In this document: piece after piece, positions 2,489-48,888 of the stretch
How positions within the stretch are numbered: position 1 is the stretch's first letter
Layout of the letters: each line of letters starts with the position of its first letter
Assembly: GCA_011391125.1 (NCBI GenBank)
Contig: JAABRE010000015.1
Span: forward strand, 3,700-67,699
Origin: Synechococcales cyanobacterium S06
GTDB taxonomy: Bacteria > Cyanobacteriota > Cyanobacteriia > Cyanobacteriales > JAABRE01
Direction of reading: 5' to 3'
DNA length: 64,000 nt
The notes under the pieces: model-generated
Seen by the model: the letters and a program-made list of their open reading frames with translations, nothing else
Databases searched by the model: none
What the model was told of the DNA's origin: nothing
Made by a program: the position numbers and the translations under genes

Positions 2489-2549
2489 TAGTTGACAGTT
2501 GATAGTTGATAGTTGATAGTTGACAGTTGATAGTTGATAGTTGATAGTT
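2483..2549. repeat. heptamer tandem array (AGTTGAT/AGTTGAC)n
   Basis: Direct reading shows 7-nt periodicity. The cphA stop codon is embedded in the array. Confidence 0.9.
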
Positions 2550-20751: not shown

Positions 20752-23700
20752 TTAAAATTGAGGTTTACCCTCTAATTTGCGGACTAAGACAAAGGTATCA
20801 CGATTAACCCCCGTCGGTCCCCAATAATTGAAAGCGTAGGAAAATTGACCATAGCCGCCCATCATCAACACTGGTTTGAGTCGAATTCTGGTTAAACTAT
20901 TGTGCATTCCGCCACGTCGATTATTGCGTAAAGGAGATTTCGGAATACCCAAAGTGCGTTCCATCGCATGGTATAAAATACAGATACTGCGGGGAATGCG
21001 AGCACTGACAACAGCGCGGGTGACGACCACACCATGATCGTTATAGACTTCAACCCAATCATTATCCACAATGCCTAAATCCACAGCATCTTGATCATTC
21101 ATCCACAAAGGATCAATACCCCTAGACAAAGTTTGCATCCGCAAAGTATCGCCATAAGTTGAGTGAATGTGCCACTTGCCATGGGGAGTGAGATAATTCA
21201 TCACCAAAGATTTACCACCTTGATGACTTTCTAATAGATCGGTAGTAATCTGATAGTCAGGTTTGGGTTTATAGGTTGGTAAATTTTCCCCATAAGCGAT
21301 ATAACCTTCATGGTCTAAATAAAGGTGTTGACGGCCAGTTAAGGTGCGCCAAGGAACTAAATATTCCACATTCAAACAAAAAGCAGAATAAGCGCGACCA
21401 TTATTAGTTAAACCGCTCCAACAAGGTGTTGTTAATAAACGACGAGGTTGGGTCACTAAATCATTGAAATTATACCGAATTGCGCGGGTAGCTTCGGCCA
21501 ATTCAGTTAAAGGAAGACCGACCTTTTTTTCCTCCTCTTTAAAAGCACGATAGGCGATTTCCCCATTTGTTTCTGGAGCTAAATGTAAAACCACATTGGC
21601 CGCATCTTTAGCATCCATAAGAGAGGGATATTTCTGATTATTCCAAGTATAAGTTGGGTTATTTTCTACTAACTCTTGATAAAAATCTTCCACCGACCAA
21701 TTTAAACCGTGCATGCCGAGATTTTTGCCATTTTCACCAAAAGCGCAAAAACGATTATAAAGATTAGGATAATCTCTTTCTACTACGACAAAATTAGGCA
21801 TAGTTTTCCCCGGAATGGGATCACATTCTCCCTTACTCCAATCGAGAATATTTCTCTGAGCAATTTCCCCTGGAGTATCGTGTTGTAAAGGAACAGCGAC
21901 GACATCTCGTAATTTTTCTGGTAAATGTTTCTCGGATAATTCAGATACTTTTTTGGACAAAGTTTTGAAAATATCCCAATCACTTTTTGACTCCCAACAA
22001 GGAGGTACAGCAGCACTTAAAGGTTGGATATAGGAGTGCATATCGGTACTATTCAGATCATTTTTTTCGTACCAAGTTGCTGTGGGTAAAACAATGTCAG
22101 AATAGAGGGCAGAAGTATCCATGCGGAAGTTAATATCCACCACCAAATCTAATTTTCCGATGGGTGCATCTTCTCGCCATAAAACCTCATTAATGCCTTC
22201 TCCCGTACCTTCTTTAGCGATAATATTGTTGTGAGTTCCTAAATAGTTTTTCAGGAAATATTCGTGACCTTTTGCACTGGAAGCGAGCGCATTTCCCCGC
22301 CAAATTAAGAGAATTTTCGGTGAATTATTCGGAGCATCTGGGTCTTCGATCGCAAATTTCAAATCACCAGATTGCAAATTTTTCACAATCCAATCTTTAA
22401 TTTCCTGCTCCGTTTTTGCGCCATCAGCTTCCGCTTTTTTAACCACTTCTACGGGGTTATAATTAAAATGAGGGTGGAAAGGAAGCCAACCCATTCTAAC
22501 AGCTTTAACCGCTAAATCGATGGTATGAGTTGCTTTAAGATCGTCTCGATCTACCGTTTCCAATAATGTTTGTTCATATCGCCATTGGCCAGAATGAACA
22601 TAGTGAAAATTAGGGGTATTTTGTAATCTTGGCGGTTTTTGCCAATCCAACGCAAATGCAAGGGTGCTCCAAGAAGAATTCGGCGCTAGTTTTTCTTGAC
22701 CAACATAGTGGTTTAAACCGCCACCATTTTTCCCGACGCAACCACAGAGGATTAAACTGACAATGGGCGCTCGATACATCAAGTTATTGTGATACCAGTG
22801 ATTGATACCCGCACCAATAATGACGCTACATTTACCTTGTGTTGTTTCTGCGGTGTTGGCCCATTCCCGCGCCAATTGCAAGACGGTTTTTCTGTCAATA
22901 CCGGTGAATTTTTCCTGCCAAGCGGGCGTGTAGGCTCTATTTTCATCATCATAATTTTCGGGATATTCGCCCTCCAAACCACGTTTTACCCCAAATTGAG
23001 CCATTAAGAGGTCAAAAACCGTGGTAACAGCGATTTTTCCACTGCTGGTGTCCAAATATTTGATGGGTACACCCCTCTCAGAAACCCGCTCATTGTCGGC
23101 AAAATCCGTGAACCCAACTTGTAAATTTTCGTCAGCGTTGTCTAAAAAGCTTAACACAGGGTCAATGTCACTGTTGTCTAAGCCGTCTTTCATTTCTAAA
23201 TTCCATTGGCCTTTTTCCTCTTGCCAACGGAAACCGATTGTACCTTTCGGCATTTTGGGACTGTTGCTAGTTTTATCAAAAACCAGGAATTTCCAGTCAG
23301 CTTTTTCTACATCCTGATAAGATTGCAACTGACTCGCAGTTAACATTCGTCCGGGGTAGTATTTGCCCTCTTTTTCCTCTAATATTACCAAAAATGGCGA
23401 ATCACTGTATTTTTTGACGTAATTTTGGAAGTATTCGACTTGGCGATCGACATAATATTCCTGCAAAATCACATGGTTGATGGCCATCCACAATGCCCCA
23501 TCTTGACCAGCATTGACGGGAACCCACCAGTCGCCAAAGCGGGAAACTTGGCTAAAATCCGGGGATAAAACCACGAATTTTGAACCGTTATGCCTTGCTT
23601 CGGCGATGAAATGCACGTCAGGTGTGCGGGTCATGTTCAAGTTTGCCCCCATACAGACGATGTATTTGGAGTTGTACCAGTCGGCACTCTCAGCAACGTC

Positions 23701-24357
23701 CGTTTGTTCCCCCCAAACTTCGGGGGAAGCGTTAGGCAAGTCGCTGTACCAGTCATAAAAGCTGAGGTTTACTGCTCCCAATAGTTGCAAAAATCGTGAC
23801 CCAGCAGCATAACTCAACATGGACATGGCGGGAATGGGCGAAAAACCAATGATGCGATCGCCACCTTCTTTTTTGATGGTATGAATCAAGGAAGCGGAAA
23901 TAATCTCCAAAACTTCATCCCAATTACTGCGACGAAAACCACCTTTACCCCGCGCTTGTTGATATTCGCTACGTTTGGCTGGGTTATTCATTAAGGAAGT
24001 CCAAGCTTCGACGGGATCAGCATATTGTCGTTTAGCTTCCCGCCATAAATCGAGCAATTTTCCTCGAATATAGGGATATTTAACCCGTAACGGGCTATAA
24101 AGATACCATGAATAGGATATTCCCCGTTGACAACCCCTTGGCTCATAGGGCGGCAAACCCGCTTCTAAACAGGGATAATCGGTTTTTTGCATTTCCCAAG
24201 TGACAATGCCGTCCTTGACGTAAATTTCCCACGAACAGCCGCCGGTACAATTGACACCGTGGGTACTGCGGACTACTTTGTCATGTTGCCAACGATTGCG
24301 ATAAAATTCTTCCCATTGACGCAATTCGGGGTTTACGATATCTTTGATCCAACTCAT
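20752..24357 (-). CDS. narG: respiratory (membrane-bound type) nitrate reductase alpha subunit
   Basis: 1201 aa. The N-terminal FS0 motif is [11 protein letters not shown] (H-x3-C-x3-C), followed by EPRGCQRG. There is no twin-arginine leader. Length and conserved blocks are typical of NarG. Confidence 0.93.
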
Positions 24358-24477
24358 AATAATTACCTCTTGTTGTGTTCACTTTATTTGACTAATATTT
24401 TTCTGGTAAGATGGGCAAATTTCTTAACATTTATTAGGAGAATAATTGTCTTTGATAATTTACCCATTCTAGTTAAG

Positions 24478-25347
24478 TTAACTTATGTGATAAAGTTTTC
24501 TGACTTCTTCTAAAGAGGATAAATCAGGTAAACTATTCGCAATTTTTTCCAGTAATTCTAAATTTTTAATTTCGCTAATTGCTGGAAATAAAGTTAATCC
24601 ATTTTCTCCAAATTTTAAGCGTAATCCTAACTGGATTGCTAGTAAAAGTCCTTCGGCTTTACCTTCAATTTTGCCTTTTTCTTGTTCACGTTTGGCCATT
24701 TCTTGATACCAAGGAGATTGTTCTAAGATTGCCATATCCCACCTCATAATTTGTTGTACTAATGATGTTTTTAAGACAAAAGATGCGAAAAAAGCTAATA
24801 ATGTTTCTAATTCTTTTAAGTCTTCATCTTGACGTAATTCCGCTAAAGCTTTTCTAACTATTGTTTCTTCGTTTCCTCCTTTTAATATGGGAACAAAGGG
24901 TAATAAAGAGTTAATTTTGTCTCTAAAAACTAGGTTAACATCTACGGACCATAGATTAATAACTCGATAATCTTGATAGGCTTTTATTCCTAATTGATTC
25001 GATTCATAACAAGTCGGAATTACCGTATTATTACTAGGTTGTAAAATATTAACAACTAGGGGATAAACAAAACGTTTGTATTTTTCTTCTGCTAAAGCTG
25101 CGTAGGCTCTAATTCGACGGGGTATTTCTTCATCGTGTCTCAATTGTATTTCATTTAGCAACAAAAATTCGCCGGTTTCTGGAGAGGAAACTCTCATTAA
25201 GACATCCCCTTGACGACTTACCCATTGAAAATCAGAATTTATTATTTCTTGAGCTTTTAAATTGGGAATTTGTGTCACCCATTGTACCCAAGGATCAGGT
25301 GATAAACTGATTAATCTTTTGCTACCAATATCAGCGGTTTTTGCCAT
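24478..25347 (-). CDS. Rpn/YhgA-like PD-(D/E)XK putative transposase-nuclease with a DUF4351-like C-terminus
   Basis: 289 aa. The N-terminal MAKTADIGSKRLISLSPDPWVQWVTQ resembles the multi-copy cyanobacterial Rpn-family proteins. It sits between cytochrome c and narG on the same strand. Confidence 0.6.
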   Translation of the reverse strand: MAKTADIGSKRLISLSPDPWVQWVTQIPNLKAQEIINSDFQWVSRQGDVLMRVSSPETGEFLLLNEIQLRHDEEIPRRIRAYAALAEEKYKRFVYPLVVNILQPSNNTVIPTCYESNQLGIKAYQDYRVINLWSVDVNLVFRDKINSLLPFVPILKGGNEETIVRKALAELRQDEDLKELETLLAFFASFVLKTSLVQQIMRWDMAILEQSPWYQEMAKREQEKGKIEGKAEGLLLAIQLGLRLKFGENGLTLFPAISEIKNLELLEKIANSLPDLSSLEEVRKLYHIS

Positions 25348-25392
25348 ATTTAAGTCTCCTAACTTCCCTTAACTAAGAGAAAAATTAGATAA

Positions 25393-26364
25393 TTAATTTT
25401 CACCTTCCACCATTTTTTGACGTACTCCTGTGAAGCGATCAGCCCATGTCCAATTACTAACAATTAACAGGAATAAACAGCCTCCTAAAGCAATCAAAAC
25501 TAACTTAATTGTTGGGGTTAGGTTGGTTAACAAATTATCGGTTTTTACCGGTTCATTACTAACAGAATCCTGCTGTTTTAAGAAGGCTAAAAGTGCAGTT
25601 TGTTCGTCGTCGGTGAGGGGTTTATTTTGATAAATACCCTGCATACTTGGATAGGGCAAGGTTTTTAAAACACTACCTAATCCCATTTCACCATAACGAC
25701 CGAAAACATGGGTTAAATTTGGTCCTAATGTTCCTCCATTTAATGCGCCAATTCCGGCACTATGACAAGAATTGCAAGCTGGAGCTTTATTAGCAAAACG
25801 GGTTTTACCTAGAAATAAATCTTCCCCCTTTTTTTTTTGAGAATTATTAACCATAGCCACGTTATTTTGGTCAATTTCTGTTGTCTGATTGTCCAGATTA
25901 ACCTGATGGGAGTTATCAATTTGTTGGGCAATATTCTGGTCAGAATTGGCTAAAGCTTGGTCATTATTTCCGGCTAAATAATCGACAATTGCCTGACTTT
26001 GTTCTGTGGTTAAACCCATATTTGGCATCGGTACTCCGTTATATTTGGCCACAATTTCTTGAGCAATTGGATCACCATTTTCGATCATTTTATCCGGTGC
26101 AGCAATCCAGTTTACTAACCAATTTTTTTCCCGTCTTTCTGTGACTCCTTTTAAGTCCGGTGCAAATCCTTTTCCTGTACCATCTAAGGTGTGACAACCT
26201 GCGCAGTTTTGCTCGAATAAGACCTGTCCATTTTCGGCAGCTATTGCTGATGGTATGGGGGTCATTATTAATATTAGTAAACTAATTAGTCCCATTATTA
26301 GTAGTTTACGATTTCTCCCTTGAATTGATTTATTTTTTTTGATTACATTCAGCTTTGATAACAT
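25393..26364 (-). CDS. membrane-anchored dihaem c-type cytochrome
   Basis: Two CxxCH motifs (CAGCH, CNSCH), an N-terminal signal/anchor, a Q/N-rich linker and a C-terminal TM helix. Confidence 0.8.
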   Translation of the reverse strand: MLSKLNVIKKNKSIQGRNRKLLIMGLISLLILIMTPIPSAIAAENGQVLFEQNCAGCHTLDGTGKGFAPDLKGVTERREKNWLVNWIAAPDKMIENGDPIAQEIVAKYNGVPMPNMGLTTEQSQAIVDYLAGNNDQALANSDQNIAQQIDNSHQVNLDNQTTEIDQNNVAMVNNSQKKKGEDLFLGKTRFANKAPACNSCHSAGIGALNGGTLGPNLTHVFGRYGEMGLGSVLKTLPYPSMQGIYQNKPLTDDEQTALLAFLKQQDSVSNEPVKTDNLLTNLTPTIKLVLIALGGCLFLLIVSNWTWADRFTGVRQKMVEGEN

Positions 26365-26427
26365 TACTTTTTCTCCTTTTTTCCTGATTAAAAACTTTTT
26401 TTACCCTCCACAAGAGAGGAAAAAATA

Positions 26428-26766
26428 TTACGACTGAGGATTCTGGTTTTCTTTGTTGAGGACTTCATGAACCCAACTAAAAACAGCAACCGTTGAAGAC
26501 ATACCCAGTGTGCCGGGAGTTAAGGCGATGATTTGTTCGATTTCGGCGGCCGGAATCCCCATGGCCAAAGCTTTGCGGACTCCCGCCGAAATTGCTCCTT
26601 GTTTCATTGCTCCCATGGCGATCGCCAATTTGAGCAATCTTATGGTTTTCTCATCAAAACAGCCTTCTTGCCCAGCTTCGTTAATCAATTCCCAGGCTGT
26701 TTCTAACTTGGGATAACGTTCGACAAATTGTTGATAGGTTTTTGGTGGTTTTGGTAATTCGGTCAT
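26428..26766 (-). CDS. carboxymuconolactone decarboxylase (AhpD-like) family protein
   Basis: 112-aa all-helical small protein with a CMD-like pattern. Recognition by eye only. Confidence 0.6.
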   Translation of the reverse strand: MTELPKPPKTYQQFVERYPKLETAWELINEAGQEGCFDEKTIRLLKLAIAMGAMKQGAISAGVRKALAMGIPAAEIEQIIALTPGTLGMSSTVAVFSWVHEVLNKENQNPQS

Positions 26767-26796
26767 GGCTTTTTTTCAAAATAATTAGATATTGAC

Positions 26797-27987
26797 TTAA
26801 TTCGGATTCTGATTAGGTTTTACGGTGCGTAAAAGTGTCCAATTTAAGACTAACAAACACACTAAACCAAAGAGACTAAAAAGAATAAAAGAAGGAGTAT
26901 AATTGCCAAAATTCTTTTTAACAATTCCTAAGAGAATCGGTGGGAAAAAACCGCCGATTCCCCCTGCTGCTCCGACTAATCCCGTTACAGTTCCCGTATT
27001 TTGGGCAAAATATTGGGGAACTAATTTAAAGACTCCGCCATTTCCTAAACCTAATAAAATGGCACAAGCAAAGCAGCCTAAATTAAATAAAAGTAGGGAT
27101 GGTAAAGCTAATGTCCAACCGAGGATAAAAATGCCTCCAAAAATGAATAATAGTAGTTGTTCTCCACCTATGTGATCACTCAACCAACCGCCAAAGGGAC
27201 GACTTACTGTAGCAATAATGACGAATAAAGCTGTTAAACCTCCTCCTTGGGCGGGATTTAGTTGAAAAATATCGCTATAGAGGCTGGGGAGGGTGATACT
27301 CAAAGCAACAAAACCGCCGAATGTCAGACTATAAAAGAAACTCAGTATCCAAGAGACTTTTTCGGTTTTTAATACTTGCAGATTTTCTTCTAGTGTTCGT
27401 GGTTTGCCTTTTGTTTCAGCATTGCGCGCAAAGAGCCAGAAAACCACTCCCCAAATGAGAGAAATTAGACCAAATACCAGTAAAACTCCTGAAATTCCGA
27501 TGTATTTTGCTAACACTGGTCCGCCAAATACGGCGACGGATTGACCAATATTGCCCATGCCGTAAACTCCTAAAGCTGTTCCTTGAACTTCTGGGGGAAA
27601 CCACTTGGAGACAAAACCGACTCCGATGGCAAAGGATGACCCAGCCAACCCTAGTAAAAAGCCCCAAAAAAGCAGACTAGGATAGCTGTGATTGAGTGAT
27701 AAAGCCACAGTTGGCACGATTGAGAAGGCGAGCAGGAAGGAAAAAATCAGACGGCCACCATAGCGATCAGTTAAAATACCCATGGGGATACGGCCAACAG
27801 AGCCTAAAAGCACGGGAATCGCAATCATAAGGAATTTTTGCGAGTCAGAGAGAGCCAATTCCTTTTTTAAAATGGGTGCTAATCCGGCAATGCTTCCCCA
27901 ACAAGCAAAACCGACGGCAAAAGCAAGGGTTGCTAAGGCCAAATTACGATTTGCTTCTAAATTTTTTCCCTCATTACTGATAGTCAT
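26797..27987 (-). CDS. narK: MFS nitrate/nitrite transporter, NarK/NasA type
   Basis: 396 aa and about 12 TM segments. Gly-rich nitrate-signature-like blocks are present (GFVSKWFP, GAAGGIGGFFPP). The gene lies 11 nt after narI. Confidence 0.85.
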   Translation of the reverse strand: MTISNEGKNLEANRNLALATLAFAVGFACWGSIAGLAPILKKELALSDSQKFLMIAIPVLLGSVGRIPMGILTDRYGGRLIFSFLLAFSIVPTVALSLNHSYPSLLFWGFLLGLAGSSFAIGVGFVSKWFPPEVQGTALGVYGMGNIGQSVAVFGGPVLAKYIGISGVLLVFGLISLIWGVVFWLFARNAETKGKPRTLEENLQVLKTEKVSWILSFFYSLTFGGFVALSITLPSLYSDIFQLNPAQGGGLTALFVIIATVSRPFGGWLSDHIGGEQLLLFIFGGIFILGWTLALPSLLLFNLGCFACAILLGLGNGGVFKLVPQYFAQNTGTVTGLVGAAGGIGGFFPPILLGIVKKNFGNYTPSFILFSLFGLVCLLVLNWTLLRTVKPNQNPN

Positions 27988-27998
27988 AATTCCAATTG

Positions 27999-28700
27999 TT
28001 AACCTTTAATTTGAGAATTTGTTACCGCTCCCACTGACTGATTCCAAACCACAACTTGGGGCGATCTCCAGATATATTGAAGGGGTAAAGAGAGGAAGTG
28101 AACTAAACGAGAGAATGGCAATAAACTAACTAAGAAAAAGGCATCGATAATGTGAATTTTCACCATTAAAGGTAAATTTTCAACCAAGGAAATATTGGGA
28201 TTAAAGCTAAAAATTGACCATAAATAAGGAGCCGCTGCGGCTGCATACCATGATGAACCCCAACGATAGAAAATAGCTGTCCAAATTCCGGCGAATACCT
28301 GCACAAATAAAGCCAATAAAATAACCACATCCATGACAGAAGTTACCGCCCTAATTCTGGGTTGAACTGCCCTTCTGACCATTAACATTATTAAGCCAAA
28401 AATAGTTAAAAATGCTAAGGATAAACCAGTTCCTTCTAAGACATATAATCGCCAAGGAACGCCATTCCAAGCGAGGACAGATTGAGGAATTATTAACCCT
28501 AATAAATGCCCTCCTAATATTAGTATAATTCCATAATGCCATGGTACTGATCCCCAAAATAGTTGTTTATTTTCGAGGAATTGAGATGACAAACTAGAAT
28601 AGGAAAAACGCTTGACAAAATATCTAATTGGTGTCACCACTAAGGCAATAATTATTGTTACATAAGGGAAAACACTAAACATAAATTCATTGCTGGTCAT
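27999..28700 (-). CDS. narI: respiratory nitrate reductase gamma subunit (dihaem b, quinol-oxidising)
   Basis: 233 aa and five TM segments, with conserved His in helices II and V (WHYGIILILGH..., KIHII..., LVHFLSLP). Confidence 0.85.
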   Translation of the reverse strand: MTSNEFMFSVFPYVTIIIALVVTPIRYFVKRFSYSSLSSQFLENKQLFWGSVPWHYGIILILGGHLLGLIIPQSVLAWNGVPWRLYVLEGTGLSLAFLTIFGLIMLMVRRAVQPRIRAVTSVMDVVILLALFVQVFAGIWTAIFYRWGSSWYAAAAAPYLWSIFSFNPNISLVENLPLMVKIHIIDAFFLVSLLPFSRLVHFLSLPLQYIWRSPQVVVWNQSVGAVTNSQIKG

Positions 28701-28738
28701 AATTAATTCTCCTTTTATTATGGGAGTTTGTTGTCGAT

Positions 28739-28798
28739 GCTCTCGCCCTTTTTAAGGGCTAAAGTGCGATTACGGGGAGAGCGCTTTAGCGCAACTAC
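28739..28798. repeat. structured hairpin-plus-tag repeat in the narJ-narI intercistronic gap
   Basis: Outer stem GCTCTC (28739-28744) / GAGAGC (28777-28782), inner stem GCCCTT/AAGGGC, then GCGCTTTAGCGCAACTAC. Confidence 0.7.
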
Positions 28799-28802
28799 AA
28801 AC

Positions 28803-29336
28803 TTAACATTTGAGAGTTTCTTGGGGGATTTCCTGTTTAATTATTAACAATAATCCCTCTAATAATTGTCCATAATTATTAGAATCAGTAAAACCTTCTT
28901 TGATTTTTTCTAAAGTGGGAATTAAACCGTCTATGATTAATTCTTGACCTAAGATTTCTGAGGAATTTAAGGTTGCTAAAAATTCGAGGATAATTGTTAG
29001 ATGATCTGCTAATTCTTTGGAGTCTGAATTAAACCCAGTTTCCACATATTTTGCTTTTAATTTTACTAAGAATTCGCCTCTTTGATAGCCGTCGCCAAAT
29101 AGTTGATAACCGACATAGGGGTAACAAGTGGGATTTAGATCAAAGGTACTGGTATAAATTTCCTCTAGTCTATCTATTGAACTATTTTGATAAAAGTTAA
29201 CGAAGTCATTAATTAAGGGTTCAATTTCTGGATAATTTTCCTTAATTAATTCACTATTCTCCCCACTTTTTAACTTTACTTTTTCGGTGGGATAATTTAA
29301 CCAATCTGACATTATTTGATATACTTTTTGTTTCAT
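28803..29336 (-). CDS. narJ: nitrate reductase molybdenum-cofactor assembly chaperone
   Basis: 177-aa acidic helical protein between narH and narI. The position and size are those of NarJ/TorD-type chaperones. Confidence 0.8.
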   Translation of the reverse strand: MKQKVYQIMSDWLNYPTEKVKLKSGENSELIKENYPEIEPLINDFVNFYQNSSIDRLEEIYTSTFDLNPTCYPYVGYQLFGDGYQRGEFLVKLKAKYVETGFNSDSKELADHLTIILEFLATLNSSEILGQELIIDGLIPTLEKIKEGFTDSNNYGQLLEGLLLIIKQEIPQETLKC

Positions 29337-29375
29337 TTATTTAACCCCTTAATTTCTCTCTAAATTGTCTATTAT

Positions 29376-30872
29376 TTAAAGTCCTCTTTCTGGTTTTTCT
29401 GAAAATCCGACTCCCACTTCTCCTTTATGTTGTTGGGTGTCTTCTAACATGGAAATTGCATATTCCCGATGACTTGGTGGAATAACGAACCTGTCTTCAA
29501 GGGTTGGTAAGGAGGTTAAACGGAAAATCGCGTCGCAGGTTTCTTTCGTCAAGCCTGCTGTGGCGATCGCCTCTTCCACTTTGACTTCATCTAAGTCGCC
29601 CACTTCTTCTAATCGTTTCGATAAACGTACGGAAATCAATTTACGGTAGGTGTCTTTGATTATTTCTTGATTTCCAGCGCTAAACATTTTTGCTAAATAT
29701 TCAACAGGAACTCGCGCTTGTTCTAAACTGGTGAAAAATGTGTCACTGTTGCTTTCATAAGTACCGTTTTCCACTCTTCCTAAAACGGGCAGTAAGGGGG
29801 GAACATAAAATAACATGGGTAAGGTGCGGAATTCCGGATGCAGTGGTAAAGCTAATTTCCACTCTTTGACAAATTTGTAAACAGGCGATTTTTGCGCCGA
29901 TTCGATTACTGAGGCATGGATGCCGTCTTTTTCAGCTTGGGCAATTACTTTTGGGTCAAAGGGATCGAGGATCAATTCTCTCTGTTTTTCCACCAATTCT
30001 GATTCGTCACAGGAGGCAATTTCTTCAATGCGATCGGCATCGTACAGCAACATTCCTAAGTAGCGGATTCTACCAACACAGGAATGGAAACAAGCAGGAG
30101 GTTGACCTGTTTCTAAACGCGGGTAACAAAGAATACATTTTTCCGATTTCCCTGATTTCCAGTTGTAGTAAACTTTTTTATAGGGACAAGCTGTGACGCA
30201 AAAACGCCATCCTCGACACACGTTTTGATTTACTAATACAATGCCGTCTTCTCCCCTTTTATATATTGCACCTGAAGGACAAGAAGCGACGCAACTGGGA
30301 TTGGCGCAATGATTGCATATACGTGGTAAGTAAAAGAAGACTAGGCGATCAATTTCAAATAAGGTTTCTCGATCTTTTTCGCTGATTGCGCCTAAATTCG
30401 GGTCATTACTGGCATAAATGGGTGAGCCGCCTAAATCATCATCCCAATTGGGACCAGCTTTAATATCAATATCATCCCCGGTAATTAAAGAAATGGGTTT
30501 AGCGGTGGGTTGATCATCACCGGCGGGAGCATCAAATAAGTCACTATATTTATAAGTCCACGGTTCGTAATAATCGTCAATGGTGGGTAAATGGGGTTGG
30601 TGGAATAAGTTGGCTATTCCTTTGACCTTATTAGTCGAACGCAATTCGATTTTTTCTTTTTCTTCATCTTTTTTCCAACCACCCTTGTATTTGTCTTGAT
30701 CTTCCCATTTGGTGGGATAACCAGTCCCCGGTTTGGTTTCGACATTATTCCACCACATATATTCTGTACCTTGACGGTCTGTCCAAATGTTCTTACAAGC
30801 GACACTGCAAGTATGACAACCAATGCATTTGTCGAGGTGAAACATCATGGAAACTTGAGCTCTAATATTCAT
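29376..30872 (-). CDS. narH: respiratory nitrate reductase beta subunit (4 Fe-S clusters)
   Basis: 498 aa. Ferredoxin-type Cys groups are CIGCHTCSVACK, CNHCANPSCVASC, CRGWRFCVTACP and CILCYPR. Confidence 0.93.
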   Translation of the reverse strand: MNIRAQVSMMFHLDKCIGCHTCSVACKNIWTDRQGTEYMWWNNVETKPGTGYPTKWEDQDKYKGGWKKDEEKEKIELRSTNKVKGIANLFHQPHLPTIDDYYEPWTYKYSDLFDAPAGDDQPTAKPISLITGDDIDIKAGPNWDDDLGGSPIYASNDPNLGAISEKDRETLFEIDRLVFFYLPRICNHCANPSCVASCPSGAIYKRGEDGIVLVNQNVCRGWRFCVTACPYKKVYYNWKSGKSEKCILCYPRLETGQPPACFHSCVGRIRYLGMLLYDADRIEEIASCDESELVEKQRELILDPFDPKVIAQAEKDGIHASVIESAQKSPVYKFVKEWKLALPLHPEFRTLPMLFYVPPLLPVLGRVENGTYESNSDTFFTSLEQARVPVEYLAKMFSAGNQEIIKDTYRKLISVRLSKRLEEVGDLDEVKVEEAIATAGLTKETCDAIFRLTSLPTLEDRFVIPPSHREYAISMLEDTQQHKGEVGVGFSEKPERGL

Positions 30873-30990
30873 TTTATTTAAGTCCTTGAAGAATCTTAAA
30901 GAGACAATTAATTATGGGGGGACGATTATGTTACATAAATCTCATTAAATTTGAATTTGTTGTTCAAATAAATCGCCTTTTCAGTTTCTA

Positions 30991-31019
30991 TTGTTACAGA
31001 ATCATCATTTAAGAGTCAA
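30991..31019 (-). promoter_or_regulatory. putative sigma70-type promoter of the narH operon (copy A of the duplicated module)
   Basis: The minus strand reads TTGACT (31019-31014), 17 nt, TAACAA (30996-30991), about 110 nt upstream of the narH ATG. It is part of a 56-bp block repeated at 31667-31722. Confidence 0.45.
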
Positions 31020-31285
31020 GAATTCCTCACATATCTTCATATTATGACTTAACATTTCTTAAACAAAACTAATCGCTATTTTACTAGAAATCAATTGAGT
31101 AATTATACTTGAAAAGTAGCTTAAACTTAATCTCTATAAGTATCTGAACTGAAAAATTAGCACGATGTAGAGGCCGATTAGCTAAGTTTTTCTCATCAGG
31201 AAATATTAAAAAAATATTAAATTGACCTAAGCTTTTGTGAAAATCAATTTTAAAAATTTAATAACCTAAATTTAAACTTTTAAGA

Positions 31286-31311
31286 CCTTAGAATTCTCGT
31301 TAATTCTAAGG
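31286..31311 (-). terminator. stem-loop downstream of the small ORF 31349..31627
   Basis: Perfect 10-bp inverted repeat CCTTAGAATT / AATTCTAAGG with a 6-nt loop. The trailing sequence is only moderately U-rich. Confidence 0.4.
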
Positions 31312-31348
31312 CCTTAAATTTGGACTTATCAAAAAGTATTTCATCAAT

Positions 31349-31627
31349 TTATCGAGAAGGAATTACACAAAACTGTTGTACAGGGATAACTTGTTGACCA
31401 CAATCAGGATTCCACACCACCCATTCCGTATCAGAATAGGAACATAATAATAAAACATCCTGCTCAGAGCTAAGTAAATGTACCCAAGTATTATCTAAAG
31501 GAGGTAAAGAAACCACTTCTTGTTGAGCTTTATTAACGGAAATCCAACACCATTGAAGATTATTGACGGAATAGTTATTATTACTTAGATTATTTGAACG
31601 GGGGCGATTTAATAATGCAGTACCCAT
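31349..31627 (-). CDS. hypothetical 92-aa protein
   Basis: The start is chosen at MGTALL (31627) because the promoter-like -10 element lies at 31671-31676, inside the longer ORF-track model. No recognisable domain. Confidence 0.45.
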   Translation of the reverse strand: MGTALLNRPRSNNLSNNNYSVNNLQWCWISVNKAQQEVVSLPPLDNTWVHLLSSEQDVLLLCSYSDTEWVVWNPDCGQQVIPVQQFCVIPSR

Positions 31628-31670
31628 AACACTTCGACTCCTAAAATTTATTTTTTTAATTCTGTATTCA

Positions 31671-31699
31671 TTGTTACAGAATCCTCGATTAATAATCAA
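31671..31699 (-). promoter_or_regulatory. putative sigma70-type promoter (copy B of the duplicated module)
   Basis: The minus strand reads TTGATT (31699-31694), 17 nt, TAACAA (31676-31671). The spacing is the same as in copy A. Confidence 0.45.
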
Positions 31700-31829
31700 G
31701 AAAACTTAACATATTTTTACATAAAAATTTTTTTGAGTCTTATGACGCGTTGCCCAAAGTTGAAAGTTAACAGAATAATGCAAAATAAGTATCTCAAAAA
31801 TGCGTCTATTGCATTAACTGTTAAAAAAT

Positions 31830-31843
31830 GTAACAAAAGATAC
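31830..31843. promoter_or_regulatory. candidate NtcA-binding site (GTA-N8-TAC)
   Basis: GTAACAAAAGATAC matches the canonical palindromic NtcA consensus. It lies in the divergent gap between the small ORF (minus) and narB (plus). No -10 box at the ideal 22-nt spacing was found. Confidence 0.3.
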
Positions 31844-32219
31844 GAAGTTTTGAAGAAATTAATGTGATGCTAAGAATCAAGCAAACCATCTAGCAATCAG
31901 CTAAAGTTTGTTCCCTGTGAATTAGTTATTTAAAATTCAGTAAATGACCATGAAATTAAATCAAAAATTACCCGATATCCAAAGTGGAACTTGTCAAGAT
32001 CATTAACAAATTCCCATAAAAAAGGTTTAATCTGTCTCTAAATTGTCTTTTTATCGTTTGATTATTATTTTCAAAGTCTGCTCTCAAAACAGTAATAAAT
32101 TTTTCATTTGATTTTTGGAACTGATAAATTTTCCCTATTTAAACTTTTTTAACTTTCTGATTTGGCCGTTGTTATCATTTAGCAAAAATAGCCCCTATTA
32201 ATTAATTAATTCAAATATT

Positions 32220-34514
32220 ATGACTCATAAAACTGTTTGTCCTTATTGTGGTGTGGGTTGTGGGTTGCAAGTATCTCCTCCAGCCGAGTTGGGTAAAGCA
32301 ACGAATAGAGATAAAGACGGCAATCCCATGTGGAAGGTGATGGGCGATCGCACCCACCCCTCAAGTCAAGGTAAAGTATGTGTTAAGGGTGCTACCATCG
32401 CCGAATCATTAGACAAAAATCGCCTTAAATATCCCATGATTCGGGAATCATTGTCCGAGCCGTTTCGCCAAGCAACGTGGGATGAAGCTTATGACAAAAT
32501 TGTCGCCAGAATCAGAGAAGTTCTCGCCACCCAAGGACCAGACGGTATTTGTATGTATGGCTCCGGGCAGTTTCAAACCGAAGATTATTACATTGCCCAA
32601 AAATTACTCAAAGGCTGTTTAGGTACAAATAATTTTGATGCCAATTCTCGTTTGTGTATGTCCTCAGCAGTTGCTGGATATAGCCAAAGTTTCGGCACCG
32701 ATGGTCCACCTTGTTGCTATGAAGACTTGGATTTAACCGATTGTGCCTTTATTATCGGTAGTAACACCGCAGAATGTCACCCGATTATTTTTAATCGTTT
32801 GCATCAAAATATTAAACGCAATCGTCAAGCGAAAATGATTGTCGTTGATCCCCGACGCACGAAAACCGCCGAAGTTGCGGATTTACACCTGGCAATTAAA
32901 CCAGGTACAGACATTGATTTGCTCAACGGAATGGCCTATTTATTAATGCGTTGGGGTTACCTTGACACCTTTTTTATCGACGAATGTACGAAGGATTTTC
33001 CCGCTTATGCTGAAGTAATTCAACATTATCCCCCGGAATTGGTGGCCCGCAAATGTGGTATTAGAATTGACCATTTAGAGCAGGCTGCCCGTTATTGGGG
33101 AGAAGCAAAAAACGTCTTATCCCTGTGGTCCATGGGAATTAACCAATCCTCTGAAGGTACAGCCAAAGTGCGCACTATCATTAATCTGCACTTAATGACA
33201 GGAGAAATCGGTAAACCGGGGGCCGGTCCGTTTTCCTTGACGGGGCAACCAAATGCCATGGGAGGTCGAGAAGCTGGCGGTTTGTGCCATATTTTACCCG
33301 GTTATCGCTTAGTGGCAAATGCTCAACATCGCGCCGAATTGGAACAAGCTTGGAAATTGCCTGCGGGGTCAATGTCCGCCGTGCCGGGGAGAGATGCGTG
33401 GAGTCAAATCACGGGTTTAGAAAGCGCAAACGTTGGTCTATACTGGGTTGCGGCCACTAATCCGGCTGTTAGTATGCCCGATTTAAACCGCACTAAAGCA
33501 GCTTTGTTGAAGTCACCCTTCACTGTTTATCAGGATGCCTATTATCCCACCGAAACCTCTGAATTTGCCCATATTTTGTTACCTGCGGCGCAATGGGGCG
33601 AAAAAGCGGGAACAATGACCAATTCTGAGCGTACTGTTAGTTATTGCCCAGAATTTCGCCATCGGCCAGGAGTTGCTAAAGCTGATTGGGAAATTTTTGC
33701 CGAAGTTGGCCGTCGTTTGGGCTTTGAAAAGCAGTTCAGTTTTGCTAATTCGGCGCAAGTTTATGCGGAATTTGTACAACTTACCCAAGGAAGACCTTGC
33801 GATGTTTCTGGTTTAAGTCATCAAAAATTACAGGAATTAGGTCCCCAAGCTTGGCCCTATCCTGAACAAGAGTCAGAAATTCGCCAAAATGAACCGGAAA
33901 AGGCTAAAAATGGTCTGTTTGCTGGACTTTTTGCCGGTAAGGAGCCACACAAGTTACAGGGAAAACGCCTTTATACTGATGGCAAATTTAACACACCTGA
34001 CGGTAGAGCTAGGTTTGGGGCTTTTCATTCTCATGGGTTGGCTGAACCAACCGACAATGATTATCCCTTTGTGATTACGGTGGGTAGGCTTTATGGTCAT
34101 TGGCACACCATGACTCGCACAGGTCGAATAGATAAGCTAATGAAGATGCACCCGACTCCTTTTATTGAAATCCACCCCAAGGATGCGGAAAAGTTGGGTA
34201 TTGAGACTGATTCTTTGGTGGAAGTGCGCTCTCGTCGTGGAATGGCGCGTTTTCCGGCTTTGGTCACCAAGGCGATCGCCCCGGGTACAGTATTTGTACC
34301 TATGCACTGGGGCGCATTATGGGGCAAAGATACGGAAGCGAATATGTTGACTCATCCTGAAGCTTGCCCCATTTCCAAAGAGCCCGAATTGAAAGCTGCT
34401 GCGGTACAATTAATATTAGTTAACAGTAATAACTTAACTGTTAAAACTGAGCAATTAACTGTTAAAACTGAGCAATTAACAGCTAATACTAAACAATTAA
34501 CAGCCAACATTTAA
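32220..34514 (+). CDS. narB: assimilatory ferredoxin-dependent nitrate reductase, with a repeat-encoded C-terminal tail
   Basis: N-terminal CPYCGVGCG 4Fe-4S motif and a molybdopterin oxidoreductase body. The last 30 aa or so ([26 protein letters not shown]) are encoded by 21-nt tandem repeats. Confidence 0.9.
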
Positions 34515-34522
34515 TTGTTAAC

Positions 34523-34627
34523 TATAGCACTTGCCAAATTTATGGGGACTCTTTTCCCCCTCTCCCTTTGGGATGAGGGGGGTAGGGGGGTGAGGGGTTG
34601 TATCTCATTTAATCTGAAAATGCTATA
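34523..34627. mobile_element. MITE, TATAGCA-terminus family with a G-rich hairpin core
   Basis: Termini are TATAGCACTTG (34523-) and AAAATGCTATA (-34627). The core is CCCCCTCTCCCTTTGGGATGAGGGGGGTAGGGGGGTGAGGGG. A second copy lies at 59740..59845. Confidence 0.75.
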
Positions 34628-34628
34628 T

Positions 34629-34665
34629 TAACTATCAACTATCAACTATCAACTATCAACTATTA
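34629..34665. repeat. heptamer tandem array (CTATCAA)n
   Basis: 7-nt periodicity. The array ends 2 nt before the ATG at 34668. Confidence 0.85.
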
Positions 34666-34667
34666 AC

Positions 34668-35120
34668 ATGACTTTTTTTCAATTTGAAGCGGCTTTTATC
34701 GAGTCTTTGCGGTGCATTCCCATGCAGATTAGAATCAATTTAGATACCTGTGGAGTTAAACTTAAATTAGCTCATTGGAATAAGTTTGATGAACAGGAAA
34801 AACAGGCTTTAGTTAATCTTCCTTGCACATCTAAAGAAGAAAGTCAAGCCTATCAAAACTTTTTGCAAAGTTTGCTTGTTAAACAAACTGGCAAACCTGC
34901 CCAAATGCTAGAAATAGATGAGTTTCCTGACTGGTTAAATGATAGTAATATTCCCGTCAATGTTAAAGAAAAAGCCGCTGAATTTGGTTTAGAAATTAGT
35001 TTACAGCAATGGGAAAATTTGACTCCTTTACAACGTTTTACTTTAATAAAATTGAGCAGAAAAGGTCACGAAAATCTTAATTTTTACCCAGCTTTAAAAG
35101 AGTTTAATTTGATCAATTAA
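34668..35120 (+). CDS. nitrate reductase-associated protein (small cyanobacterial family found next to narB)
   Basis: 150 aa. The N-terminal FQFEAAFIESLRCIPMQIRINLDTCGVKLKL matches my recollection of the narB-associated family. It lies immediately downstream of narB. Confidence 0.65.
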   Translation: MTFFQFEAAFIESLRCIPMQIRINLDTCGVKLKLAHWNKFDEQEKQALVNLPCTSKEESQAYQNFLQSLLVKQTGKPAQMLEIDEFPDWLNDSNIPVNVKEKAAEFGLEISLQQWENLTPLQRFTLIKLSRKGHENLNFYPALKEFNLIN

Positions 35121-48022: not shown

Positions 48023-48186
48023 AAAAAAGCTCCTAAGATAGTTGGTAGTTGAGAGTGAATAATGAGCCGTTTTTATAACAACAATTAATTATCCACTGTC
48101 AACTAAAATAATTGTTAATTGTTAATTGTTAATTGTCAATTATTAACCGCTATCTTAAAGAAATCCTTTCGTTATGTATATGTATT

Positions 48187-48888
48187 ATGGAAGAAAAATC
48201 CGACCAACAAATATCTGACTTAAAAAATCTACTAAACTGTGTGCCTTTTTTTCAAGGACTTCCTGATCAAAGTTTTTTGAAAGCAACGGGTCATGTTGTA
48301 ACCAGAATTCATCCTCCCAATCAAGTAATTTTGTTGGAAAATGATTGGGGAGGAGCAGTGTATTTTGTCCTAGAAGGATGGGTAAAAATCAGAACTTACA
48401 ACGTCGAAGGCAAAGAAATCACCTTAAATATTTTAGGAAAAGGGGAATTATTTGGCGAAATGGCCGCACTTGAAGATGTCCCCCGTTCCACCGATGTGAT
48501 TACTTTAACCGATACCAAAATTGGCAGTATTCCCGCAGCGGATTTTGTCGATTTAATCCATACAGAACCCATGGCCGGATTAAGTTTAACAAAATTAATG
48601 GCCAAAAGATTGCGTCAAGTAAATCGCAAATTAAGACTAAGGGAAGCTGATGCTATGTCTAGGGTAGCAGATACCCTAATGTTTTTAGCCGAAGGCCAAG
48701 GGAAAAAAGGAACTCAAGGTACAGAAATCCCCAATTTACCCCATCGAGAATTAAGTAGTTTATGTGGTTTGGCCAGGGAAACCGTAACCAGGACCTTAAC
48801 AAAATTAGAAAAGAAAAACGTGATTAAACGGGAACAAGATTATATTTGTATTCCCAATTTATCAGCTTTAGAACATCTCATTGGTTAA
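48187..48888 (+). CDS. Crp/Fnr family transcriptional regulator (not NtcA)
   Basis: A cNMP-binding beta-barrel (GELFGEMA...RSTDV) plus the C-terminal HTH ELSSLCGLARETVTRTLTKL. The ATG at 48187 is preferred over the TTG at 48133. There is no N-terminal Cys cluster of the Fnr type. Confidence 0.85.
   Translation: MEEKSDQQISDLKNLLNCVPFFQGLPDQSFLKATGHVVTRIHPPNQVILLENDWGGAVYFVLEGWVKIRTYNVEGKEITLNILGKGELFGEMAALEDVPRSTDVITLTDTKIGSIPAADFVDLIHTEPMAGLSLTKLMAKRLRQVNRKLRLREADAMSRVADTLMFLAEGQGKKGTQGTEIPNLPHRELSSLCGLARETVTRTLTKLEKKNVIKREQDYICIPNLSALEHLIG

What the first reader, a model, noticed from the sequence alone, without database searches (positions are those of the whole stretch)
30987..31722. Duplicated 56-bp promoter-like module upstream of narH and of a small unknown ORF
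Seen:
- 30987-31042 and 31667-31722 (offset exactly 680 nt) align without gaps at 42 of 56 positions by my hand count. This includes a perfect 14-nt block ATTGTTACAGAATC.
- Read on the minus strand, both copies give a -35/-10 pair with identical 17-nt spacing: TTGACT-N17-TAACAA and TTGATT-N17-TAACAA.
- Both also carry a conserved ATATGT block about 15 nt upstream of the -35.
- Copy A lies about 110 nt upstream of narH. Copy B lies about 45 nt upstream of the MGTALL start of ORF 31349-31627.
- A stem-loop (31286-31311) separates the two units.

Inference: the two transcription units share a promoter and probably a regulator-binding site, so the 92-aa protein would be co-regulated with the Nar operon. 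Conservation beyond the hexamers suggests an operator rather than chance.
Basis: seen in the sequence. Interest (0 to 1): 0.6.

Follow-up and report, generated by a model that had tools for sequence, protein, structure and literature searches.

The report
Duplicated nirP1 promoter drives nar operon
The repeat is real: the "unknown" small gene is a homologue of NirP1, a nitrite-reductase inhibitor, and its promoter (an NtcA repressor site plus an activator repeat, both tested in Synechocystis) has been copied in front of a respiratory nitrate reductase operon, so the two are probably switched on together.

Summary
No such repeat appeared in 300 shuffles of the intergenic DNA (z = 9.1).

The 92-aa ORF (31349-31627, minus strand) is a homologue of NirP1, the nitrite-reductase-interacting protein of Synechocystis (hhalign 98.3%, E = 1e-14). 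Two members of its family are listed as NirP1 homologues in that paper.

Copy B is therefore the orthologous nirP1 promoter. It has an octamer pair, 6 nt, TTGATT, then a TGTA-N8-TACA box of NtcA type over the -10 and start site. In Synechocystis the NtcA box represses and the repeat, centred at -51.5, is essential.

Copy A is a paralogous copy in front of narH-narJ-narI-narK-...-narG. It keeps the repeat, the -35 and GTA-N8-AAC. Related contigs show the module belongs to nirP1. nirP1 carries it where no nar operon is nearby, and two related nar operons lack it.

It is not a dispersed repeat. Co-regulation of nar with nirP1 by C/N balance is inferred, not shown.

The promoter type is known; its use on a nar operon appears new.

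The parts
   Evidence: hhalign of family alignment A3 against Synechocystis NirP1: probability 98.3%, E = 1.1e-14. BLASTP E = 1e-7. Family members P0177 and P0138 are listed as NirP1 homologues in PMC10907346 Datasets 1 and 2. Invariant residues W48, C62, W69, W72. AF2 predicts four beta strands in the conserved half.
31706..31723 (-). Copy B tandem octamer repeat (sense TATGTAAA-AA-TATGTTAA); predicted activator site at about -59..-42
   Evidence: It occupies the same place (6 nt upstream of the -35) as the TTTGT(T/C)AA-N2 repeat of Synechocystis PnirP1, which lies at -43..-60 and is essential for transcription. It matches the HLR1 consensus at 15 of 16 positions in reverse orientation.
31694..31699 (-). 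Copy B -35 hexamer TTGATT
   Evidence: It has the same 6-nt distance from the repeat as TTGGCT in Synechocystis PnirP1.
31664..31677 (-). Copy B NtcA-type box GTAACAATGAATAC (full palindrome TTCTGTA-N8-TACAGAA, 31660-31681). It overlaps the -10 (TAACAA 31671-31676; TG-extended AACAAT) and the predicted start site near 31663-31664.
   Evidence: Exact TGTA-N8-TACA occurs only twice in the window. GTA-N8-TAC is present in 8 of 9 nirP1-family promoters examined. The paper's Dataset 2 reports the same sites as the NtcA motif in NIES-970 and PCC 7376.
31279..31318 (-). Terminator-like hairpin after nirP1 (17-bp stem)
   Evidence: It is conserved in L001-L003. L005 has a different hairpin at the same place.
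31044..31069 (-). Extension specific to the narH copy (sense TTTTGTTTAAGAAATGTTAAGT); reads as a second octamer pair
   Evidence: Conserved between the window and L001 upstream of copy A and absent upstream of the nirP1 copies. That it is a second activator site is inference.
31026..31043 (-). Copy A tandem octamer repeat (sense AATATGAA-GA-TATGTGAG), degenerate
   Evidence: In register with copy B at offset 680. Matches HLR1-type consensus at 12 of 16 in the window and 14 of 16 in L001.
31014..31019 (-). Copy A -35 hexamer TTGACT
   Evidence: TTGACT-18-AACAAT with extended-10 TG, 9 of 12 matches.
30984..30997 (-). Copy A NtcA-like box GTAACAATAGAAAC (GTA-N8-AAC). It overlaps the -10 (30990-30996). 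The predicted start site near 30983 gives a narH leader of about 111 nt.
   Evidence: The T12-to-A change is shared with L001 and is a fixed difference between A and B copies.
20752..30872 (-). narH-narJ-narI-narK-like MFS-CMD-cytochrome c-unknown-narG operon downstream of copy A
   Evidence: Pfam. NCBIfam equivalogs pass their cut-offs: narG 1565/1084, narH 669/524, narI 125/106 bits. The best hit of the MFS protein is the NarK family.
32220..35120 (+). narB-type assimilatory nitrate reductase (32220-34514) and narM (34668-35120), divergent from nirP1
   Evidence: NarM TIGR02664 scores 172 bits against a cut-off of 110.

Best explanation
The two 63-65-nt blocks are two copies of one regulated promoter.

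**Copy B** is the native promoter of a nirP1 homologue. NirP1 is a small protein that in Synechocystis binds and inhibits ferredoxin-nitrite reductase.

Layout on the minus strand: an octamer pair (TATGTAAA-AA-TATGTTAA), 6 nt, -35 TTGATT, 15 nt, then the palindrome TGTAACAATGAATACA. The left half of the palindrome doubles as a TG-extended -10. With an assumed start site about 7 nt after the -10, the repeat centre falls near -50/-51 and the palindrome spans about -13 to +1.

By homology with the tested Synechocystis promoter:
- an as yet unidentified activator binds the repeat and is required for transcription;
- NtcA, loaded with 2-oxoglutarate under nitrogen limitation, binds the palindrome and blocks RNA polymerase.

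**Copy A** is a paralogous copy of this promoter, made before the window and L001 lineages split. It sits after the nirP1 terminator and in front of a respiratory-type nar operon that looks horizontally acquired. It keeps the repeat position, the -35, the -10 and left half-site, and G1, T2, A3, A13 and C14 of the NtcA box. The T12-to-A change is fixed.

**Consequence (inferred).** nar is transcribed under the same conditions as nirP1 (low 2-oxoglutarate, that is nitrogen excess or low inorganic carbon) and is shut off under nitrogen starvation. Nitrate reduction to nitrite by Nar, nitrite export by the NarK-like transporter and NirP1 inhibition of nitrite reductase would then act together.

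**Shown here:** the repeat, its conservation, the NirP1 homology and the match of motif content and spacing. **Taken from the literature:** the function of the two elements in Synechocystis. **Inferred:** the start sites, NtcA binding to either copy in this organism, and co-regulation.
For: 1. **The repeat is far beyond chance.** z = 9.1, 0 of 300 shuffles.

2. **The ORF is a NirP1 homologue.** hhalign 98.3%, E = 1.1e-14. P0177 is identical to WP_015134654.1. The promoter of P0138 is listed with the same NtcA motif instance in PMC10907346 Dataset 2.

3. **The box is conserved across the family.** GTA-N8-TAC occurs in 8 of 9 nirP1-family promoters from distant cyanobacteria. Each has a chance probability of about 0.04 per 150 nt. 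The half-sites are invariant and the spacer varies.

4. **The geometry is that of a repressor.** The box lies 28-54 nt from the ATG in those 8 promoters, and 99 nt in the one-mismatch L069 site. In the window and L074, for example, that is too close to the ATG or Shine-Dalgarno sequence for activation from -41.5. This matches the repressor role shown by reporter and ChIP-seq data (PMC10907346 section 7; PMC5714215).

5. **The octamer repeat sits at a fixed place.** It scores 12-15 of 16 in 6 of 9 nirP1 promoters and in both narH copies. The probability of 15 or more at a fixed position is 5e-6. It has the same 6-nt gap to the -35 as in Synechocystis.

6. **Both copies are conserved in L001** (NirP1 80% identical) while the flanking DNA has diverged. 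Four fixed differences between A and B copies indicate a single old duplication.

7. **Direction of copying.**
   - L005 has nirP1 with the module and no nar operon within about 10 kb.
   - The nar operons of L065 (NarH 87% identical) and L066 (84%) lack the module.

8. **It is not dispersed.** Scans of 185,579 genomes and of the metagenome collection for TTCTTGA-N14-TTCTGTAACAAT returned only unrelated matches. None carries the ATATGT block or the right half-site.
Against: - No transcript or binding data exist for this organism. The start sites are assumed.
- The NtcA box of copy A is imperfect (GTA-N8-AAC), and its first octamer in the window has slipped register (12 of 16).
- In two metagenome populations (L002, L003) a 59-nt deletion removes the repeat and -35 of copy A. 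That half is therefore dispensable there, or nar expression has been lost or depends on read-through.
- The box lies 10 nt closer to the -35 than in Synechocystis, so the mechanism is transferred from a non-identical layout.
- nar operons elsewhere are usually controlled by oxygen and nitrate sensors, and additional control here is not excluded.
Confidence: 0.72

Rival explanations
1. Copy A is a decaying relic of a local duplication with no promoter activity. On this view nar is transcribed by read-through from the nirP1 promoter or from another promoter in the 476-nt spacer.
For: - The L002/L003 populations lack the upstream half of copy A.
- The NtcA box and first octamer of copy A are degenerate.
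- The nirP1 hairpin has only a weak T-tract.
- Other conserved islands exist in the spacer.
Against: - Copy A is retained in two lineages whose NirP1 proteins differ by 20%.
- The invariant columns fall on the functional parts: ATATGT, TTCTTGA and TTCTGTAACAAT.
- The neighbouring spacer has large insertions and deletions.
- The A-specific upstream octamer pair is also conserved.
Confidence: 0.13
2. The shared palindrome, at least in copy A, is bound by a different Crp/Fnr-family regulator that senses oxygen or nitrate, for example the protein at 48133-48888, rather than by NtcA.
For: - Crp-family proteins recognise similar dyads.
- The right half-site of copy A carries fixed changes (AACTGAA / AACGGAA), which could mean altered specificity.
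- A Crp-family gene lies in the window.
- nar operons in other bacteria are Fnr-dependent (general knowledge).
Against: - The box matches GTA-N8-TAC, not TTGAT-N4-ATCAA or TGTGA-N6-TCACA.
- For nirP1, NtcA binding and repression are experimentally supported in Synechocystis (PMC10907346, PMC5714215).
- The box position overlaps the -10, which fits repression and not Fnr-type activation.
Confidence: 0.12
3. The block is a small mobile or dispersed repeat, or a recombination site flanking the ORF, not a promoter.
For: Two direct copies flank a small gene.
Against: - Only two copies occur in 64 kb.
- No true copy was found in the genome or metagenome collections.
- There are no terminal inverted repeats or target duplications.
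- L005 has one copy only, upstream of the gene.
- The content matches a characterised promoter.
Confidence: 0.02
4. The palindrome acts as an RNA hairpin in the 5' leader rather than as a DNA operator.
For: A 7-bp inverted repeat with an 8-nt loop could fold.
Against: - The half-sites are invariant rather than covarying.
- The variants (CGTA...TACA in L073, TGTT...TACA in L069, the AACT/AACG halves in the narH copies) break pairing without compensation.
- The predicted start site lies inside the palindrome.
- There are no Rfam matches.
Confidence: 0.02

Closest known systems
PnirP1, the promoter of nirP1 (ncr1071) of Synechocystis sp. PCC 6803 (Kraus et al. 2024, PMC10907346)
   Same: - The downstream gene family is the same.
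- The parts come in the same order: a tandem octamer pair separated by 2 nt, 6 nt, a -35, then an NtcA box GTA-N8-TAC followed by AGAAA.
- The repeat is centred near -51.
   Different: - Here the NtcA box is 10 nt closer to the -35 (15 nt against 25 nt). It therefore overlaps the -10 instead of lying just downstream of it.
- The octamers read TATGTWAA rather than TTTGTYAA.
- A second copy of the promoter serves a different operon.
NtcA-repressed promoters of gifA, gifB and pirA (ssr0692) in Synechocystis (PMC5714215)
   Same: Genes for small regulatory proteins, with an NtcA box placed where it excludes RNA polymerase. They are expressed when nitrogen is plentiful.
   Different: They are unrelated proteins and lack the upstream octamer repeat. 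None is known to be duplicated onto an enzyme operon.
HLR1 boxes bound by RpaB at activating positions (centred near -51; PMC6525291)
   Same: Two 8-nt direct repeats separated by 2 nt. Copy B matches (G/T)TTACA(T/A)(T/A) at 15 of 16 positions in reverse orientation and L070 at 15 of 16, at the activating distance. The nirA promoter is co-controlled by RpaB and NtcA.
   Different: - Binding has not been tested.
- nirP1 is induced at low inorganic carbon. By the logic of PMC6525291, RpaB has left DNA under that condition, because RpaB-repressed pgr5 is induced then.
- The Synechocystis repeat deviates at the core T (TTAACA / TTGACA).
Fnr/NarL-controlled narGHJI promoter of E. coli and other proteobacteria (general knowledge)
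   Same: It drives the same type of enzyme operon.
   Different: - There is no Fnr-type TTGAT-N4-ATCAA site at -41.5 here.
- The gene order is narH-J-I-K...narG.
- The promoter is borrowed from a cyanobacterial nitrogen-control gene.

Membership tests
NirP1 protein family (small ORF) | Sequence homology to Synechocystis NirP1 | tested here: met
   hhalign 98.3%, E = 1.1e-14 over 49 columns. BLASTP E = 1e-7. The family search recovers WP_015134654.1 (P0177) and WP_024545550.1 (P0138), both listed as homologues in the paper.
NirP1 protein family (small ORF) | Conserved C-terminal ~50 aa with an absolutely conserved central Cys and three Trp; length mostly 76-86 aa | tested here: met
   W48, C62, W69 and W72 are invariant in 16 sequences. 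C27 is nearly invariant and C87 is invariant. The length is 92 aa, slightly long because of an N-rich N-terminus.
NirP1 protein family (small ORF) | Four beta strands in the conserved part (AlphaFold model in the paper) | tested here: met
   AF2 predicts strands 47-51, 57-63, 68-73 and 77-82, with pLDDT 78-94 over residues 41-90. PDB fold matches are weak (E >= 0.008; SH3/KOW/Tudor-like).
NirP1 protein family (small ORF) | Binds and inhibits ferredoxin-nitrite reductase; promotes nitrite excretion | not testable with these tools
   Needs co-immunoprecipitation and a nitrite assay.
PnirP1-type promoter, copy B | NtcA box GTA-N8-TAC over the core promoter or start site | tested here: met
   GTAACAATGAATAC at 31664-31677. 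Its position relative to the start site is inferred from the -35 and -10.
PnirP1-type promoter, copy B | Tandem octamer repeat with a 2-nt spacer, upstream of the -35, centred near -51.5 | tested here: met
   TATGTAAA-AA-TATGTTAA at 31706-31723, 6 nt from the -35 as in Synechocystis. It matches TTTGTYAA at 13 of 16 positions (my count). The centre near -50.5 assumes the start site.
PnirP1-type promoter, copy A (narH) | NtcA box GTA-N8-TAC | tested here: inconclusive
   GTAACAATAGAAAC matches 5 of 6 core positions. The strongly conserved G1, T2 and C14 are kept and the medium-weight T12 is changed.
PnirP1-type promoter, copy A (narH) | Tandem octamer repeat at the same distance from the -35 | tested here: inconclusive
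   The register is the same, but the match to WWTGTAAM-N2-WWTGTAAM is 12 of 16 in the window and 14 of 16 in L001. An extra upstream pair is present at 31044-31069.
PnirP1-type promoter, both copies | Repression by NtcA, dependence on the repeat, induction at low inorganic carbon or on ammonium | not testable with these tools
   Reporter, 5' end and gel-shift experiments are needed.
HLR1 / RpaB regulon | (G/T)TTACA(T/A)(T/A)-N2-repeat centred at -66..-45 for activation | tested here: inconclusive
   Copy B matches 15 of 16 and copy A 12 of 16. Window-wide, matches with up to 2 mismatches number 14 against 9.1 expected. The expression logic argues against RpaB.
Respiratory nitrate reductase NarGHI | narG, narH and narI equivalog models above their cut-offs, plus a NarJ chaperone | tested here: met
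   narG 1565/1084, narH 669/524, narI 125/106 bits. NarJ matches Pfam PF02613.
Dispersed or mobile repeat | Many copies at unrelated loci | tested here: not met
   Two copies in the window. Only chance matches in the genome and metagenome scans.

The most novel reading that the evidence does not exclude
A cyanobacterial lineage wired a horizontally acquired, quinol-dependent respiratory nitrate reductase into the NtcA / carbon-nitrogen balance circuit by copying the nirP1 promoter in front of it.

Under low inorganic carbon or nitrogen excess, three things would then happen together:
- Nar burns plastoquinol on nitrate.
- NarK exports the nitrite.
- NirP1 blocks nitrite reductase.

This would be a dedicated nitrate-to-nitrite electron valve. 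It would give the long-observed nitrite excretion of cyanobacteria a bioenergetic purpose.

A side lead concerns the unidentified activator of nirP1. It may be an OmpR-class response regulator that recognises an HLR1-like direct repeat.
Probability: 0.3. Interest if true: 0.65.

Novelty: new member of a known kind. Interest (0 to 1): 0.45.

Why it matters
NirP1 was described in 2024 as the switch that makes cyanobacteria excrete nitrite when carbon is short. That paper's main text does not mention nitrate reductase genes or gene neighbourhood.

Here nirP1 sits between an assimilatory narB and a respiratory nar operon, and its promoter has been copied onto the nar operon.

If the copy works as the original does, two things follow:
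- It is a natural example of a foreign operon being wired into a host regulon by promoter duplication.
- It predicts that Nar-type nitrate reduction in these cyanobacteria responds to carbon/nitrogen balance rather than only to oxygen.

It also supplies independent, diverged copies of the essential octamer repeat. These may help to identify the unknown activator.

Tried and rejected
- **Dispersed repeat.** A search for the 14-nt core with up to 2 mismatches found only the two copies in the window. Pattern scans of genome contigs (25 hits) and metagenome contigs (32 hits) gave only unrelated matches. None has the ATATGT block or the right half-site, and the one checked against an ORF map (Nostoc, L031) lies inside a 704-aa ORF. 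These collections evidently do not hold the source organism or the L001-L005 samples, so no regulon scan was possible.
- **Known RNA family.** None in 30700-32300 at E <= 1.
- **Class II NtcA activation.** Rejected. No TAN3T lies 20-24 nt downstream of the box in any copy, and in the window and L074 the ATG or Shine-Dalgarno sequence is too close.
- **Divergent use of the palindrome for narB.** No -10 at the right distance on the plus strand.
- **RpaB as the activator.** The motif match is good, but the published expression logic conflicts with it. I kept it only as a lead.
- **Protein fold search for the small protein.** Only weak matches to small beta-barrels.
- **Pfam and NCBIfam.** No family for the small ORF.
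- **Organism name.** Not recoverable.
- **ssr1038.** This NtcA-repressed unknown protein of Synechocystis was considered as a possible homologue but could not be checked. nirP1 corresponds to ncr1071 instead.
- **25-nt repeat 29349-29373 / 32027-32051.** Not above chance for a 5-kb region and not conserved in L001.
Full report
**1. The observation.** The two blocks exist as described.
- At offset 680, 30987-31042 and 31667-31722 share 42 of 56 positions, including ATTGTTACAGAATC.
- The repeat finder extends the pair to 63 nt at 75% identity (30980-31042 / 31660-31722).
- Within the 1347-nt intergenic stretch it is the top ungapped direct repeat, with score 23. Three hundred dinucleotide shuffles gave 12.5 +/- 1.15 and a maximum of 17.5, so z = 9.1.
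- The hexamers, the ATATGT block, the distances to the two start codons and the stem-loop at 31286-31311 (extendable to 31279-31318, terminator-like on the minus strand) are all as stated.

**2. Context.**
- The minus strand carries narH (29376-30872), narJ, narI, a NarK-like MFS transporter, a CMD-family protein, a cytochrome c, an unknown protein and narG (20752-24357).
- narG, narH and narI pass NCBIfam equivalog cut-offs.
- Upstream of the small ORF, on the other strand, lie a narB-type assimilatory nitrate reductase and narM.
- The rest of the window is ordinary cyanobacterial chromosome, with cphA, argB and hemA among others. G+C is 37%.

**3. Relatives of the locus.**
- The 92-aa protein has two close relatives, at 80% and 72% identity.
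- Contigs with the 80% relative (L001-L003) have the same order, small ORF then hairpin then narH. L001 carries both module copies.
- L002 and L003 come from two other metagenomes and are about 99% identical to L001 over the 588 nt compared. They have a 59-nt deletion between ATTAT microhomologies that removes the upstream half of the narH copy.
- The 72% relative (L005) sits among unrelated genes, with no nar operon within about 10 kb. It nevertheless has the complete module in front of it.
- Conversely, the closest other nar operons lack the module. These are L065 (NarH 87% identical, preceded by glbN) and L066 (84%).
- The module therefore belongs to the small gene and was copied to nar, not the reverse.
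- Over the 65-nt block the identities are:
  - orthologous B copies: 51-60 of 65;
  - the two A copies: 51 of 65;
  - A against B: 46-53 of 65.
- Four positions are fixed differently in A and B, which indicates one duplication before the two lineages split.

**4. What is conserved.** An alignment of the five distinct copies shows identity confined to about 65 nt. The invariant blocks are ATATGT, TTCTTGA and TTCTGTAACAAT, followed by A-AC-GAA.
- In the three small-ORF copies the last block is part of a perfect palindrome, TTCTGTA-N8-TACAGAA.
- Exact TGTA-N8-TACA occurs only twice in the 64-kb window.

**5. The gene family and its promoters.**
- An exhaustive profile search showed that the small ORF belongs to a family of 75-105-aa proteins spread through cyanobacteria.
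- I fetched six distant members: L069-L072, plus L073 and L074. The named ones are Synechococcus NIES-970, Myxosarcina, a PCC 7376-like Leptolyngbya and Fischerella.
- Five of the six have GTA-N8-TAC upstream of the ATG, and the sixth has one mismatch.
- The chance of such a site in 150 nt is about 0.04 per promoter.
- The half-sites are constant while the spacer varies. The variants are not compensated, which argues for a protein-binding DNA site and against an RNA hairpin.
- Anchoring on the box also lines up a direct octamer repeat (WWTGTAAM-N2-WWTGTAAM) and a -35-like hexamer at fixed distances in most members.

**6. Identification.** The pattern matches the published nirP1 promoter.
- Kraus et al. 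2024 (PMC10907346) describe NirP1 as follows:
  - It is an 81-aa protein of Synechocystis.
  - It has one absolutely conserved central cysteine and three conserved tryptophans.
  - It binds nitrite reductase and causes nitrite excretion at low inorganic carbon.
- The paper's section on nirP1 regulation reports:
  - an NtcA site 'over the TSS', which is a repressor site and is conserved in 435 of 456 homologues;
  - a tandem repeat of two octamers TTTGT(T/C)AA separated by a dinucleotide, centred at -51.5;
  - that mutation of the repeat abolishes transcription and that the activator is unknown.
- The family alignment matches Synechocystis NirP1 with hhalign probability 98.3%, E = 1.1e-14.
- P0177 is identical to the paper's WP_015134654.1.
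- The paper's Dataset 2 lists, as the NtcA motif, the same sites I found in NIES-970 and PCC 7376.
- The AF2 model has four strands in the conserved half.

**7. Anatomy compared.**
- Synechocystis: TTTGTCAA-GA-TTTGTTAA, 6 nt, TTGGCT, 17 nt, TATCAT, 3 nt, TGTAAATATGGATACAGAAA.
- Window copy B: TATGTAAA-AA-TATGTTAA, 6 nt, TTGATT, 15 nt, TGTAACAATGAATACAGAA.
- The parts and their order are the same. The NtcA box is one helical turn closer, so that TG-T-AACAAT (or TAACAA) serves as the -10.
- With a start site about 7 nt downstream, the repeat spans about -59 to -42 and the box about -13 to +1.
- According to PMC5714215, NtcA activates from -41.5 and represses from positions that exclude RNA polymerase. 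G1, T2 and C14 are the most conserved positions of the box, and A3, T12 and A13 are moderately conserved.
- Copy A reads GTAACAATAGAAAC. It keeps all six core positions except T12.
- Copy A also has a conserved extension of its own (31044-31069) that reads as a second octamer pair.

**8. Mechanism and confidence.**
- Copy B is the orthologous nirP1 promoter: about 0.9.
- Copy A is a functional promoter derived from it: about 0.7.
- NtcA represses nar through copy A: about 0.5.
- The physiological reading is inference. It holds that Nar, the NarK-like transporter and NirP1 act together as a nitrate-to-nitrite sink when 2-oxoglutarate is low.
- The activator is unknown. The repeat resembles HLR1, the RpaB site, at the activating distance (PMC6525291). 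However, nirP1 is induced at low inorganic carbon, a condition in which RpaB-repressed genes are derepressed. This argues against RpaB.

**9. Rivals.**
- A dead relic of a duplication: the L002/L003 deletion supports it and the conservation argues against it.
- A different Crp-family regulator acting on copy A.
- A dispersed repeat: excluded at the depth available.
- An RNA hairpin: no covariation.

**10. Novelty and score.**
- The promoter type and the protein are known since 2024, and copy B is another instance of them.
- The new element is the paralogous copy on a respiratory nar operon, together with the nirP1-narB-nar neighbourhood. The NirP1 paper's main text does not mention these, and I found no paper describing them.
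- This is a solid, testable regulatory link of moderate interest, not a new kind of system.

Noticed in passing
L002:2178-2210 and L003:674-706 (compare L001:1068-1162): Two metagenome populations carry a 59-nt deletion between ATTAT microhomologies. It removes the octamer repeats and the -35 of the narH promoter copy but keeps the NtcA-like box. L001 is about 99% identical over the 588 nt compared and is intact.
   Followed up: yes
window 31044-31069 (minus strand): A conserved extension lies upstream of the narH copy only (sense TTTTGTTTAAGAAATGTTAAGT). It looks like a second octamer pair, similar to TTTGTCAA-GA-TTTGTTAA of Synechocystis PnirP1.
   Followed up: partly
window 31830-31843: A second perfect GTA-N8-TAC (GTAACAAAAGATAC) lies between nirP1 and narB. 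It overlaps two HLR1-like matches (31817-31837). No canonical -10 lies 20-24 nt downstream on either strand.
   Followed up: partly
window 2658-2679: TTCTGTATATTTCGCTACAAAA is a one-mismatch match to the extended palindrome and an exact TGTA-N8-TACA. It lies 170 nt downstream of cphA (cyanophycin synthetase, 2-2488).
   Followed up: no
window 2480-2550 and 2944-2975: Runs of the heptamer GTTGATA/GTTGACA in tandem flank the region downstream of cphA.
   Followed up: no
window 29349-29373 and 32027-32051: A 25-nt direct repeat (88% identity) occurs at the narH-narJ junction and in the narB leader. Because the genes are on opposite strands, the two mRNAs would be complementary there. It is not above chance for 5 kb and is absent from L001, where narJ starts 4 nt after narH.
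   Followed up: partly
window 20752-30872: The gene order narH-J-I-narK...narG is unusual, with narG last and CMD, cytochrome c and an unknown gene in between. It is shared with L001, L065 and L066. The nearest named NarH relatives are Parabeggiatoa and Thiomargarita at about 70-73% identity, which suggests horizontal acquisition.
   Followed up: partly
L066:3833-3850: The upstream region of a related narH that lacks the module contains AATGTAAA-GT-TATGTATT, an octamer-pair-like element (14 of 16). No NtcA box follows it. The significance is marginal.
   Followed up: partly
L065:971-1612: In another related nar cluster a truncated haemoglobin (glbN) and a 47-aa ORF precede narH. Limnospira indica PCC 8005 is reported to have norB, glbN and narH/narG fragments together (PMC8400943).
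   Followed up: no
window 35138-37141 and 48133-48888: A sensor histidine kinase lies directly after narM. A Crp/Fnr-family regulator that is not NtcA (47 bits against a 245-bit cut-off) lies 17 kb away. Both are candidates for additional control of the nitrate genes.
   Followed up: no
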